64,000 nt of DNA from Eledone cirrhosa (lineage: Eukaryota). This document shows, piece after piece, positions 19,658 to 61,263 of the stretch. Position 1 is the stretch's first letter; every line of letters begins with the position of its first letter. The notes beneath the pieces are model-generated. The model was given only the letters and a program-made list of their open reading frames with translations, had not been told where the DNA came from and did not search any database. The DNA lies in assembly GCA_964016885.1 (NCBI GenBank), contig OZ024742.1, forward strand, positions 363,692,001-363,756,000, in the 5' to 3' direction. The position numbers and the translations under genes are program-made.

Positions 19658-20076
19658 TATATATATATATATATATATATATATATTTCTGTACATACAC
19701 GCATTTATACTACAAATTTATTTATACACACACACGCACACGCACCCATATATATATATATATATATATATATATATATATATATATATATATATATATA
19801 TATATACACACACGAGCGTGAGCCCCCCCCCCCCTCACCATATATATATATATGTATAAATATAAGTATGTATGTATAAGTACATACATATATGTATACA
19901 GACGTACAGTAGTATATATATACATACAGGCACACATATATATATGCACGTATCGGTTTACCGAACATTTATTATAATGCTCGGTTTGTTCGTTTGTAAA
20001 CAAACAAACAGCCTGGATTACGCCGTACAGTGTTCAGGCAACCACGTCACCTTTTTGTTCAACACTGACACAGGAA

Positions 20077-20117
20077 CGATGTACTAGTTTCAAGCTTATT
20101 AGCTATCGTCAGCACCG
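20077..20117 (-). ncRNA. Minimal type-I hammerhead ribozyme (family A)
   Basis: Reverse complement of 20320-20360. Confidence 0.8.
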
Positions 20118-20319
20118 TGTACCTTTCTGCCAGATGGTTGAACGTCCGAAAGTATATACTTTCCTTATGAAAATTAACGGCTGAGCAGCCTAATTTGCAT
20201 ATCGAGTGAGTTCCGTCGGCCAGGCGCACCGAAAACGATAAATGGAATAGAATGAAACGTTAATTTTCATAAGGAAAGTATATACTTTCGGACGTTCAAC
20301 CATCTGGCAGAAAGGTATA

Positions 20320-20360
20320 CGGTGCTGACGATAGCTAATAAGCTTGAAACTAGTACATCG
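20320..20360 (+). ncRNA. Minimal type-I hammerhead ribozyme (family A)
   Basis: CGGTG-CTGACGA-tAGCT aata AGCTt-GAAA-CTAG-TA-CATCG; GUA site after 20355; palindromic ACTAGT stem III. Confidence 0.8.
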
Positions 20361-21016
20361 TTCCTGTGTCAGTGTTGAACAAAAAGGTGACGTGGTTGCC
20401 TAAACACTGTACGGCGTAATTCAGGCTGTTTGTTTGTTTACAAACGAACAAACCGAGCATTATAATAAATGTTCGGTAAACTGATACGCGCATATATATA
20501 TGTGTGCCTGTATGTATATATATACATGCTACTGTACGTCTGTATACATATATGTATGTACGTATACATACATACTTGCATTTAAGTAAGTGCCGTACTG
20601 AGAGTGAGGAAGGAAATTTCGTTTCATTCTATTCCATGTATAAATATATATATATATATATTTCTGTACACACACATTTATAATACAAATTTATACATGT
20701 ATCTTAAGAGATTTAGCATGTAATTGTATATAACATAAATATTCCAATCATATTGTTGAAACTATCCCCAGGCAAGGCCATGTAGGTTTTTCTACTCATG
20801 TATTAATGTATAAATATATTAATGTATTAATTACTAAATCTGACATGCGTCACAAAATGTTAGATTGGATTCCGTTCTCACACATTCCATAAAAAATTGA
20901 AACATTCTTCTGTTGTTTTCAAAAGTCTTATGGAACGGATATTCTGTTCTAAAGCATTATTATTTTATTTTTTACATTATTATTTTATTTTTTACATTAT
21001 TATTTTATTTTTTACA

Positions 21017-21130
21017 AAGTCAAATCCCGCCGAGGTTGACTTTGCCTTTCATCCTTACGGGGTCGATAAAATAAAGTACCAGTAATGTACTGGGTTATTG
21101 CTGGCCTTGTGCCTAAAGTAGAAGCAATTA
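21017..21130 (+). mobile_element. 5'-truncated SINE S1 with TSD
   Basis: Core and tail match S1; ATTATTTTATTTTTTACA on both sides. Confidence 0.8.
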
Positions 21131-57223: not shown

Positions 57224-58939
57224 CATATATATATATGTGTGTGTGTGTGTGTGTGTGTGTGTGTGTGTGTGTGTGTGTGTGTGTGTGTGTGTGTGTGTGT
57301 GTGTGTCTTATGGTAGCAAAGATGCGTCCATAGGTGGTATGCCGGTTGAGCACTCTATGCTCCTACGGAACAGAGTATGATAGAATAGAAAACGAAGAAT
57401 CAGTGATGCATCGGAACTCAATTTATTGTGTCTTACAATTGCGAACAGCTCGAGGTGCGATCTGTGTGTACATCAACCTGAGTCTGGATTCGCAGGTTCC
57501 TCAGGCACGTCTATTGATTTCGGAGCAGATCCTCTTCCCAAGGTTCTGACCCTACGGGTCTATATCGTCTACCTTCATCCTGTTTACGCGTCCTTGGGTT
57601 GGTCACTGGTTAGTGACGTCATCATAATTCTGACCATTGGGAGCAACCCACTGACCATCGGGGCGTGAGCTGTCGGCAAAATTGTGCCGAGTCCCATCGG
57701 CAAAATTACTGCTGTGTGCCTGTTCACACTCCCACACGCACGCACACATACACATGCAGAGAGACACGGACAGATACATATAGAATGGCTCGCGTCTTAC
57801 GTTCACACACGTGCCCACAGAAACATATACGCATATTCATATATATATACACACACACATAAACAGTCACGCAAATATACACATACATGCAGACACAGAG
57901 AGGCTCACACACACTCACACACACCTGTATATATACATACACACACGCACCCATACACACGCGTACATATACATACATATACACGCACGGATATATACAT
58001 ACATACACATACGCACACACATACGCACACATGCACATATATATATATATATATATATATATACACACATGCACATATATACATACATACACGCCCACAC
58101 GGACATATACACAAATAGATATACATACATGTACATATCTATATATATACATATATATGCATATCTATATCTACATATTTGTCCCTCTATACGTGTGTAG
58201 ACACACACACTCACACATATACATACACACACACGTATACTCTTACATGTATAAATGTATATATATATATATACACATACATAAAAAAATATCTAATAAA
58301 TATATAAGAAAAGTATATAAAGATTCACATTGAGCTGTGCATGAGAAAATACACCTTGATGTATATGCTGACAGAGTTGGTATTACGTTGCCAACATGGA
58401 TTACTTCACGTATAGAAAACTCAAGCAAAACCACATATGGGGAACTCATGGGATTAATGTAAAGGGGATGCCTAGACCATATATGGGAAATGCATGCAGA
58501 ATATATAAAATATATATTAGAAATATAAAGAAAAGTATCTAACGATACATATTGGGTTGTACATGGAAAAATATATGAGGTGTTACATAATCAAATGCGT
58601 GGAGAATATGCACACACTACTGAAAAGATACACATGCAAGGAGTGCCTGAACTGGCTATAATGGAGTATGTACTGTGGGTGAGATAGAGTGCCTTATTGA
58701 TGTATGGTATGGGATTGAATATCCATGGAAATTGAGCCACCGTGTCCCGGCTCCTGCGATGTCGTTGCTTAAGATGACGTGCAGAGTCCGATAGGCAGCA
58801 TAGATTGTGTCGTCTTACCCCACAGGGCATACATAGTCAACAAGGTATGGTGTCAGTCCCCTTGGACCCGCACCGCCGCTCGGACTGTCGTCCGTTCCCC
58901 ATATGCCTTTTATGGGCCGTCCGGTGGTGCCCGTGCACA

Positions 58940-59460
58940 GAGTATGCACCTTCTCTGGTATCTGCATGTCATGATAATCTCTGATTTCAGGTTTATCGCA
59001 ACACCCTTTAGTCTCACTATCTCCTACTATAGCCTACACTTCCTCTCTCCAGCCGTATATGCATTTGCATGTTGAACGATCCTCCAGTTGAGATCATACG
59101 GGGTGCCGTTGTATTTCAAGACCCATATTAGGTCCGCCAGACCAGTGGAGTGTCTCTTGCTCCGGTCCTTGAAAGAGATTGTGTGATTATACATCCTCGA
59201 TTTAAAGGTCGTGGATGTTGCGCCGATGTAGATGCGCTTGGTGTTGTGCGTATTAACCACACATTTATATACTAGGCCCTTCGTTAGGCATCTTCCCTGC
59301 AGAGGGCAATGTGTGCCCGCCTTGCAGTTGCATGTTCGGTCGTTATGTTGCTCATCTCTTACGCTGGGCCCTGGGTCTACTACGGCATTCACCCGATTCT
59401 CTGGGTGTTCTTATGTCGGTGCGATGGGTTCCCCTCCATCATTCAGTTCCGCATGGCATT
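58940..59460 (-). pseudogene. Penelope-like GIY-YIG endonuclease fragment
   Basis: TCNCKAGTHCPLQGRCLTKGLVYKC..IYIGATSTTFKSRMYNH..STGLADLIWVLK..LNWRIV. Confidence 0.9.
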
Positions 59461-60000
59461 CGTTTAGATGTAAATCTGGAACTGAATACGAGCATAGACC
59501 GGCCATACCACAAGCCCAACGAGAACCTGCAATATGTGAACAGGCACTCGAACCACCCCAAGTTCGTAATAGACGCCATAGTCTAGTAATGGAAGCCATA
59601 GTAAAAGATTACCATAAAGGATTACCGCAAGGACGCAAGACTGACACTAAGACAGACGAAGACACACGCGGTTGGCAGACCACCCAGTACACGCAGACTG
59701 AATCCCGACACAGACACAATACGCGACGTGGACACTGGAACTAGTGACAGGGTAAAGACAGATACGGGCGTGAAACCAGATAGAGGAAACACCCGGGTCA
59801 ATAGCAATGACATAGCCCTGACAATAGCACCAAATAACATTAACGGGACTACCAGTAGAGCCAACAATATAGAACGGAATACTTCAGTAAGCAAACGGCG
59901 TAACCCCGACGTACACGGTAGATATATAGATAGCGGTAGCATAGGGGACGAACTAACTGGTAGACACAACCCAGGACGGGCACCTGACCCAAAACACATT
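59460..60000 (+). pseudogene. Penelope-like RT C-terminus and linker, inverted relative to the endonuclease part
   Basis: LDVNL..RPYHKPNENLQYVNRHSNHPKFVIDAIV, followed by an open low-complexity linker. Confidence 0.75.
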
Positions 60001-60660
60001 ACTACTACTACTACTACTACTACTACTACTACTACTACTACTACTACTACTAATACTACTACTACTACCACCACTACTACTACTTATAATACTACTACTA
60101 CTACTACTACTACTACTACTACTACTACTGCTGCTGCTGCTGCTGCTCCTGCTACTATTACTACTACTACTACTACTACTACTACTACTACTACCACCAC
60201 CACCACCACTACTACTACTACTACAACACCCCCCCCCCCCCCCCACCCATCCACCTATCCACACCGCCGCCGCCGCCACCACCACCACCACCACCACCAC
60301 CACCACCACCACCACCACCACCACCACCACCACCACTACTACCACCACCACCACCACCACCACCACCACCACCACCACCACCACCACCACCACCACCACC
60401 ACCACCACCACCACTACTACTACCACCACCACCACCACCACCACCACCAGCACCACCACCACCACCACCACCACCACCACCACCACCACCACCACCACCA
60501 CCACCACCACCACCACCACAGACTACTACTACTACTACTACTACTACTACTACTACTACCACCACCACCACCACCAGCACCAGCACCACCACCACCACCA
60601 CCACCACCACCACCACCACCACCACCACCACCACCACCACCACCACCACCACCACAGACT
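60001..60660. repeat. (ACT)n/(ACC)n compound microsatellite
   Basis: Direct reading. Confidence 0.95.
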
Positions 60661-61263
60661 ACATGGCCCCAACCAGCGTGGTGAAGCTGGGGTAATCCGA
60701 CCGCCAACAGGGGCAGGCGGCTGACGGTTCCTCAGGGCAGAGAGAGGCTCCAACTATAGTCCGGTCCCCGCGGCGACCAGTCCCATAAACATACAGTATA
60801 TTATCAAATATACTATACATACATTCATATATACATCCCTATTTTTGCTGGACGGCAACTGCTCTGCTTAATTCAGAGCACGTATACTAATATATAGAGA
60901 GAGAGAGCAAACAGAGTAGAGCAAACATCACGAGCGCTCTATCTCAAAATTATGTGTGAAAAGCATTAGAAATGCGCCACCGGTAAAAACTTAAAACTAA
61001 AACTGAATACTAACCAATACTTATTACTAATTTATACTTATTCCTAATTAAACTATTTTTCACTGGGAAAAATTTGTCAGCATTTTCTTTTCCTTTTTAC
61101 TAATATATATATTTGGCTGCGCTTTCTAGCAGCAAGCCTACCCGCCGTAAGCAACCAATCACATTCTTTCTGGCTTGACCACAGCCACATAGCGATTCTT
61201 AGCCATTTTTGAATCTATTTTTGGCGGGATCGGATTGAAAAACTAGATGTCTGATTTTGAGTT

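What the first reader, a model, noticed from the sequence alone, without database searches (positions are those of the whole stretch)
19863..60780. All orientable fold-back insertions share one polarity (3' ends outward) and mostly sit in (TA)n
Seen: at 19.9-20.6k, 29.0k, 34.5k, 41.2-42.5k, 45.8k, 46.9k, 47.5-49.7k, 50.4k, 51.0k, 55.9k, 56.4k and 59.5k, the left arm is always minus-sense and the right arm plus-sense, as oriented by HHR or ORF. Most outer ends abut (TA)n. Known: Penelope insertions often carry an inverted 5' LTR, and twin priming gives this polarity. Inference: both ends of a break in an AT microsatellite prime reverse transcription, and the same machinery mobilises both coding PLEs and the non-coding monomers. 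It may also seed or expand the (TA)n tracts.
Basis: partly seen in the sequence, partly recalled or inferred. Interest (0 to 1): 0.7.

Follow-up and report, generated by a model that had tools for sequence, protein, structure and literature searches.

The report
Head-to-head Penelope-like retroelement insertions
These mirror-image inserts in TA repeats are the already described insertion pattern of Penelope-like jumping genes, shown here by their small non-coding ribozyme-bearing parasites, so the pattern is real but mostly ordinary.

Summary
Real, but largely published. Of 12 listed loci, 11 are fold-backs with left arm minus and right arm plus; 59.5k is a head-to-head inversion of coding fragments without duplication or (TA)n. 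21 of 24 outer ends lie within 12 nt of (TA)5+ (background 2.6%). The arms are non-coding hammerhead monomers (retrozyme-like). Coding fragments nearby carry Hydra-clade Penelope motifs. Reads from two other samples show recurrent strand-switch joints in one family, 9 of 11 fitting head-to-head, so assembly chimeras are unlikely. Head-to-head polarity, a one-sided tail, (TA)n targeting by Hydra and priming on both strands in vitro are in print, and this scan met the pattern in other genomes. New detail: all 9 scoreable fold-backs carry a 58-93-nt tail on one arm only, and in 5 of 5 resolvable cases the tail-less arm reaches further 5' (noticed post hoc). That excludes simple cDNA snap-back and fits two priming events at two fixed start sites. 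A 13-nt target duplication shows the TA tract pre-existed at one locus; seeding of (TA)n is unsupported.

The parts
19865..20635 (.). Fold-back A: left arm minus (19865-20259), right arm plus (20258-20635) with 58-nt tail; family A hammerhead monomer of about 455 nt; 13-nt target duplication at 19852-19864 and 20636-20648
   Evidence: arms 315/323 identical; tail matches the copy at 39415-39482
29012..29179 (.). Fold-back: left arm minus (29012-29066), right arm plus (29073-29179) with 77-nt tail
   Evidence: oriented by homology to the hammerhead 3' half at 19525-19564; tail matches the copy at 19553-19655
34541..34690 (.). Fold-back, family D: left arm minus with hammerhead core (34541-34589), right arm plus with 78-nt tail; 3-nt overlap at the joint
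   Evidence: shared part 26/26 identical
39021..39863 (.). Mixed head-to-head unit: family A monomer on minus (39021-39542) joined through short templated fillers to a coding RT-thumb fragment on plus (39590-39863)
   Evidence: junction covered at depth about 28 in X1, near 0 in X8/X9
41238..42479 (.). Fold-back B, 470-nt monomer related to A: left arm minus, 529 nt with 66-67-nt tail; right arm plus, 719 nt; 2-nt overlap at the joint
   Evidence: 3 true differences in about 460 nt; hammerheads 41529-41571 (-) and 42215-42253 (+)
43058..44960 (+). Broken coding Penelope-like element: hammerhead, RWI and DKT motifs, RT and thumb; SINE-like insert at 43533-43724; single-armed
45746..46049 (.). 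Fold-back C: perfect palindrome at the centre, 65-nt extra on the left arm, degenerate hammerheads
   Evidence: arms 115/120; no second copy in the window confirms the tail
46063..46176 (+). Single-armed family D copy between TA tracts
46932..47241 (.). Fold-back, family D: left arm minus with 78-nt tail, right arm plus; arms only 96/110 alike and the left arm closer to other copies
47498..49692 (.). Complex unit: inverted 346-nt arms (47865-48210, 48974-49319); the right arm runs on to a hammerhead fold at 49593-49671 (+; core with one change); the left arm passes into another repeat family ending at 47498
50416..50900 (.). Fold-back F: arms 169/171 identical, 90-nt extra on the right, repeated 11-mer fillers at the centre
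50918..51360 (.). Fold-back G: arms 173/174 identical, about 90-nt extra on the left, 11-nt spacer
55874..56400 (.). Old fold-back H, relative of family A; left arm stops just after the hammerhead and does not touch TA
56437..57223 (.). Fold-back I, monomer of about 545 nt: left arm minus, 247 nt with 93-nt tail; right arm plus, 544 nt with hammerhead 56958-57034
59027..59580 (.). Inversion without duplication: GIY-YIG with CxCx5C linker on minus (59027-59410), RT thumb on plus (59458-59580); no TA
1..780 (+). Coding Penelope-like 3' half cut by the window edge: thumb, CxCx5C linker, C-terminal GIY-YIG; fixes the domain order

Best explanation
The inserts are products of Penelope-like (most likely Hydra-clade) retrotransposition acting in trans on non-coding hammerhead monomers transcribed as tandem or circular RNA. 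The protein nicks both strands of a pre-existing (TA)n tract a short distance apart. Both 3' ends prime cDNA, one at a proximal start site and the other at a distal start site 58-93 nt further 3'. The two cDNAs stop at variable points, and their 3' ends are joined through 0-5 nt of overlap, a self-complementary site or short templated fillers. Priming fixes each arm's 3' end at the target, so the product must be head-to-head, with the tail on one arm. Shown here: geometry, tails, overlaps, one target duplication, recurrence in reads. From papers: both-strand cutting and extension, two start sites bounding the tail, TA preference. Inferred: that Hydra proteins move these monomers, the joining step, and whether one RNA or two serve as template.
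For: One-sided tail in 9 of 9 scoreable fold-backs, confirmed as element sequence by a second copy in 6 of 9. In 5 of 5 loci where the centre can be assigned, each arm holds element sequence or length that the other lacks, so neither is a plain copy of the other. Start sites recur: the proximal site at 19865 and 39021; the distal site at 20635 and as loose ends running into (TA)n at 39409 in 15 contigs of X1. 13-nt target duplication at A. Joint overlaps of 0-5 nt in reads. Hydra motifs in coding fragments. PMC11167929, PMC8557442, PMC3846280.
Against: No intact coding element in the window and no genome held, so the trans-acting partner is not shown. The monomers were not shown to be homologous to a coding element's terminal repeat, beyond a hammerhead at 43058 of similar form to those of F and G. 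The in vitro work is on a Poseidon element with a 30-40-nt tail and saw no difference in start site between strands. About as many single-armed copies as fold-backs lie in the window, so the second priming is optional. Perfect or near-perfect central palindromes (C, G) also suit self-priming.
Confidence: 0.72

Rival explanations
1. Self-priming on an antisense transcript (model of Arkhipova et al. 2013): the RNA 3' end folds back and is copied, giving a head-to-head hairpin that the endonuclease trims and inserts, leaving the tail on one arm.
For: Published explanation of the same geometry. Central palindromes at C and G. It also predicts that one arm always reaches further 5', as in 5 of 5 loci.
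Against: Needs a separate step to remove the tail from exactly the longer-reaching arm. The later in vitro work shows target-primed synthesis on sense RNA, with start sites at the tail's borders. Arms from unlike templates at 46.9k and 39.5k do not fit.
Confidence: 0.12
2. One priming event, then snap-back of the cDNA 3' end onto itself and copying back to the target.
For: Arms are 96-100% identical at eight loci. Repeated templated fillers at 50.6k and 39.55k show that cDNA ends do re-prime locally.
Against: The copy must be contained in the first cDNA. At A, 29.0k, 34.5k and I the tail-less arm has 5' sequence absent from the tailed arm's run-up, at B it is 190 nt longer than the tailed arm, and the tailed arm has 3' sequence beyond the other's end. 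It remains open only for C, F and G.
Confidence: 0.08
3. Two independent insertions landing in the same TA tract or next to each other, with the polarity arising from how pairs are noticed.
For: Insertions pile up in TA tracts (C/D, F/G, H/I share tracts). The 46.9k arms are 87% alike and the left arm is closer to other copies. 39.5k joins at the monomer's own internal TA run.
Against: No target DNA between the arms at 10 of 11 fold-back centres (TA-like repeat only at 48.96k). Arms share private variants at 34.5k and 29.0k. One target duplication spans both arms at A.
Confidence: 0.06
4. Read or assembly chimeras.
For: Fold-back chimeras are a known long-read artefact (recalled). None of the 12 listed junctions was itself laid with independent reads.
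Against: Arms are short, differ by 0-14%, are asymmetric in a family-specific way and sit in non-inverted flanks. Strand-switch joints of family A recur at the same coordinates in short reads of two other samples.
Confidence: 0.02

Closest known systems
Insertion unit of endonuclease-positive Penelope-like elements (PMC8557442 Fig. 2 legend; PMC3846280)
   Same: Inverted 5'-truncated copy joined at the 5' end, head-to-head, tail at one end only, palindromes or microhomology at the joint, short target duplication.
   Different: Tails here are 58-93 nt, against 30-40 nt in print, and most units are non-coding.
Hydra clade of Penelope-like elements (PMC8557442 section 11, File S1)
   Same: DKT and RW motifs, CxCx5C linker, C-terminal GIY-YIG, hammerheads, (TA)n targets; Penelope-13_HM is listed with (TA)n preference and a 5' inverted copy.
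   Different: Only broken fragments here; RWI instead of RWK; no tree was built.
Animal non-LTR retrozymes (PMC7229834; bioRxiv 10.64898/2026.07.22.740005)
   Same: Non-coding, low-GC tandem monomers with a type I hammerhead, proposed to depend on Penelope-like elements.
   Different: Monomers are longer (455-545 nt), mostly 1-1.5 units, and occur as fold-backs with tails; the passages read do not describe inverted insertions; expression and circular RNA are not shown here.
PAc Poseidon in vitro system (PMC11167929)
   Same: AT-rich nicks, both strands extended, two start sites bounding the tail, no need for hammerhead cleavage (arms at B run through intact hammerheads).
   Different: Different clade; it reports no strand bias in start site and does not follow the joining of the two cDNAs.
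L1 twin priming (recalled, not read)
   Same: Both DNA ends prime, 3' ends face outward, microhomology at the joint; fits 59.5k.
   Different: L1 inverts without duplicating; here both arms hold the same sequence.

Membership tests
EN+ Penelope-like insertion unit | Inverted 5'-truncated copy adjoining the 5' end (head-to-head) | tested here: met
   11 of 12 listed loci
EN+ Penelope-like insertion unit | Tail extension on one end only | tested here: met
   9 of 9 scoreable, 2 of 11 not scoreable; 58-93 nt, longer than the published 30-40 nt
EN+ Penelope-like insertion unit | Type I hammerhead in the terminal repeat | tested here: met
   motif scan; one Rfam HH9 match at 41512-41584, below the gathering score
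EN+ Penelope-like insertion unit | Target-site duplication | tested here: inconclusive
   13 nt with non-TA letters at A; hidden by pure TA at nine loci; none at H and 59.5k
Hydra clade | C-terminal GIY-YIG after the RT thumb | tested here: met
   order in window 1-780; weak Pfam GIY-YIG match, E 0.031, at 59k; the two are 47% identical
Hydra clade | CxCX5C linker | tested here: met
   both endonuclease fragments
Hydra clade | DKT in place of DKG; RWK motif | tested here: met
   DKT and RWI in the 43k copy; RWK met in two of three letters
Hydra clade | No CCHH motif in the endonuclease | tested here: inconclusive
   by eye no cysteine pair between GIY and YIG in two broken copies; not aligned to reference families
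Hydra clade | Placement in the RT phylogeny | not tested
   homologue search returned nothing; no reference set in hand
Non-LTR retrozyme | Non-coding tandem monomer with type I hammerhead | tested here: met
   periods of about 455 (A), 470 (B), 545 (I); two hammerheads in tandem only partly present at B
Non-LTR retrozyme | Self-cleavage and circular RNA | not testable with these tools
   needs bench work or RNA runs; see Tried and rejected
L1-type twin priming | Inversion without duplication of the 3' part | tested here: not met
   11 of 12 loci duplicate the same sequence; met only at 59.5k

The most novel reading that the evidence does not exclude
A Penelope-like dimer copies one RNA twice. 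The polymerase that starts at the proximal site leads and the one at the distal site trails, so the tail is always on one arm and the tail-less arm always reaches further 5'. Now and then the two DNA ends are served by different RNAs (46.9k, 39.5k, 47.5k), fusing non-coding monomers with coding elements. The genome's many fold-backs would then be a direct in vivo record of the untested second half of the cycle.
Probability: 0.25. Interest if true: 0.5.

Novelty: new member of a known kind. Interest (0 to 1): 0.25.

Why it matters
The headline pattern is the textbook signature of this element class, so by itself it adds little. What may be of use: very abundant non-coding hammerhead monomers show the full integration signature (head-to-head arms, one-sided tail, TA target), which is sequence-level support that animal retrozymes are moved by Penelope-like proteins. 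The high copy number would also make the one-RNA versus two-RNA question countable in a whole genome.

Tried and rejected
No whole genome is held, so the genome-wide scan and empty-site test could not be run. Neptune clade, my first guess, was dropped for Hydra on motifs. The homologue search with the RT fragment, longer proteins only, found none among 1731 candidates (weak). A 27-nt family A motif had no match in metagenome contigs. No RNA holder listed. The very many loose ends at 39193-39195 and the joint 39195-39433 in RAD reads coincide with AATT sites and were set aside as likely ligation chimeras. A hairpin in the tail is not general: z below -3 at B and C, above -1 at D, 34.5k and 29.0k. 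Arm identity against flanking TA length: rho 0.39, p 0.23, n 11, no support for growth or decay. The palindromes at 26.0k and 62.8k have symmetrical ends and no hammerhead and were not counted. No earlier notes for this genome or for the B monomer.
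Full report
Observation. A self-comparison of the window finds inverted repeats at 11 of the 12 places listed. A scan for type I hammerhead cores puts a minus-strand core in the left arm and a plus-strand core in the right arm at 19.9k, 41.2k, 46.9k, 50.4k, 51.0k and 55.9k, and degenerate ones at 45.8k. At 34.5k, 56.4k and 47.5-49.7k one side carries the motif and homology orients the other. At 29.0k the orientation rests on homology to a hammerhead 3' half at 19525-19564. 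The twelfth locus, 59.5k, has the same polarity but no inverted repeat: an endonuclease fragment on minus meets an RT-thumb fragment on plus. Of 24 outer ends, 21 lie within 12 nt of a TA run of 10 or more letters, against 2.6% of background positions. Some ends were set by eye; the 15 ends fixed by the inverted repeat or a second family copy are all adjacent.

What the arms are. Most are pieces of non-coding monomers that repeat in tandem with periods of about 455 nt (family A), 470 nt (B) and 545 nt (I). A, B and H are related. The coding fragments at 1-780, 39.6k, 43-45k and 59k are Penelope-like, with thumb before endonuclease, a CxCx5C linker, and DKT and RWI motifs. These match the description of the Hydra clade, nearly all of whose families insert in (TA)n (PMC8557442, section 11 read). 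The clade call rests on motifs, not on a tree.

In all 9 scoreable fold-backs one arm runs 58-93 nt further 3' than the other (58 at A, 77 at 29.0k, 78 at 34.5k, 66-67 at B, 65 at C, 78 at 46.9k, 90 at F, about 90 at G, 93 at I). H and 47.5k cannot be scored. The extra is element sequence by a second copy in 6 of 9; F and G resemble each other weakly; C has no second copy. If each end chose between two start sites independently and equally, 9 of 9 would have a chance of about 0.002 (my arithmetic). In the 5 loci where the centre can be assigned (A, 29.0k, 34.5k, B, I), the tail-less arm reaches further 5', by about 80, 25, 23, 256 and 391 nt; C is a tie; 46.9k, F and G have spacers of unknown ownership. 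This was noticed after the fact, and 5 of 5 is only 1 in 32. Centres show overlaps of 2-3 nt (B, 34.5k), a perfect palindrome (C), or repeated templated fillers (F, 39.5k). Locus A is flanked by a 13-nt duplication that holds non-TA letters, so both arms arrived in one event in a tract that already existed.

Independent reads. Four runs were laid on the single minus-strand copy of family A and the adjoining coding fragment. X8 and X9 are RAD libraries of two other samples under the same species label; X1 may be the source of the assembly. Of 101 joints, 15 were shown and 11 of these switch strand, at the same coordinates in X8 and X9. Read-length arithmetic against the apparent enzyme sites places the joint at the element's 5' side of both pieces in 9 of 11; one is compatible but not diagnostic and one lies on two AATT sites and was set aside. 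The library design favours head-to-head joints and part of the monomer was masked, so this shows that fold-backs are genomic and common, not the ratio of the two polarities. In X1, 15 contigs end at 39409 in (TA)n, near the distal start seen at A. Summed depth is about 10^6 on the monomer and 3x10^3 on the coding fragment, which is no copy number but shows that the monomer is far more abundant. None of the 12 listed junctions was itself laid.

Mechanism. A snap-back of one cDNA would leave one arm contained in the other; that fails at 5 of 5 resolvable loci. Two priming events, one at each of two fixed start sites, explain polarity, tail and TA contact together. A purified Poseidon protein cuts and extends both target strands, starts at two sites that bound the tail, prefers AT-rich DNA, does not need hammerhead cleavage and is predicted to be a dimer (PMC11167929, parts 1-2 of 4 read). 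Whether one RNA is copied twice or two RNAs are used is open. Arms share private variants at 34.5k and 29.0k, and A's arms are 97.5% alike against 92-93% to the 39k copy. At 46.9k the arms are 87% alike and the left arm is closer to other copies, and at 39.5k and 47.5k unlike sequences are joined, which suggests two templates or nested events. The published rival, self-priming on antisense RNA, also gives head-to-head pairs and cannot be excluded by anatomy alone.

TA tracts. By my reading of the flanks, 16 of 37 tracts of 30 nt or more touch a recognised element end, 3 are doubtful and the rest do not. Arm identity does not predict tract length (rho 0.39, p 0.23). Family A carries a short internal TA run and can bring it to new sites; target duplication can add a few units. 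Nothing here shows seeding of the long tracts.

Comparison with print. PMC3846280 (passages) names head-to-head as the most frequent arrangement and places the optional tail on one inverted repeat. PMC8557442 (passages, section 11, supplement search) describes the adjoining inverted 5'-truncated copy and the tail at one end, and lists a Hydra family with (TA)n preference and a 5' inverted copy. PMC7229834 (passages) and bioRxiv 10.64898/2026.07.22.740005 (part 1 of 5 and passages; supplements closed) treat hammerhead tandem repeats as non-autonomous elements tied to this class. Searches did not bring up tails of 58-93 nt, fold-backs of retrozymes or the leading-arm rule; the library lacks most subscription papers, including the 2005 and 2006 reviews that these papers cite. 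L1 twin priming is recalled, not read. Earlier notes of this scan report the same pattern in other genomes and judge it ordinary; they are unchecked and are not counted as support.

Verdict. It is the known insertion signature of Penelope-like elements, here on abundant non-coding monomers beside Hydra-like coding fragments. Interest 0.25. The one lead worth a genome-wide count is the strict one-sided tail with the tail-less arm reaching further.

Noticed in passing
window:20186-20193, 39361-39375, 41651-41665, 42119-42126, 55976-55990, 56129-56136: The octamer ATGCAAAT is kept about 75-100 nt upstream of the hammerhead in families A, B and H; it is recalled as a POU-factor site of snRNA promoters and might be part of an internal promoter.
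   Followed up: no
window:62792-63254: A 460-nt palindrome, arms about 90% alike, symmetrical ends in CTAG, no hammerhead found; may be a DNA-type fold-back element.
   Followed up: partly
window:25984-26145: Short element with terminal inverted repeats of about 50 nt flanked by TA; MITE-like.
   Followed up: partly
window:7193-12700: Broken LTR retrotransposon (protease, RT, RNase H, integrase frames at 9037-12232) between 238-nt direct repeats 98.7% alike.
   Followed up: no
window:6842-7027, 13007-13197, 25673-25857, 30441-30617, 36361-36542, 37530-37952, 43533-43717: Many copies of a SINE-like repeat of about 185 nt in both orientations; one sits inside the coding element at 43k.
   Followed up: no
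window:1625-2158, 23979-24161, 28785-28880, 47498-47860: A repeat family with a 141-nt internal tandem and a fixed end at or near TA tracts, no hammerhead found; at 47.9k it is fused to a different fold-back arm.
   Followed up: partly
window:45056-45635: A further monomer of about 496 nt with an 86-nt terminal repeat follows the RT thumb of the 43k element directly and ends in TA.
   Followed up: partly
window:2771-2812, 33001-33023, 35645-35806, 46236-46868, 63313-63730: Further single-armed hammerhead-bearing pieces, most touching TA; at 2771 the TA tract begins right after the GAAA of the core.
   Followed up: no
window:59600-60660: Long low-complexity ACT/ACC frame after the thumb fragment, perhaps an expanded linker insert like those at 39.7k and 44.96k.
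   Followed up: no
window:35325-35395: tRNA-like match on minus (41 bits) inside a 158-nt direct repeat (35185-35342, 35447-35604).
   Followed up: no
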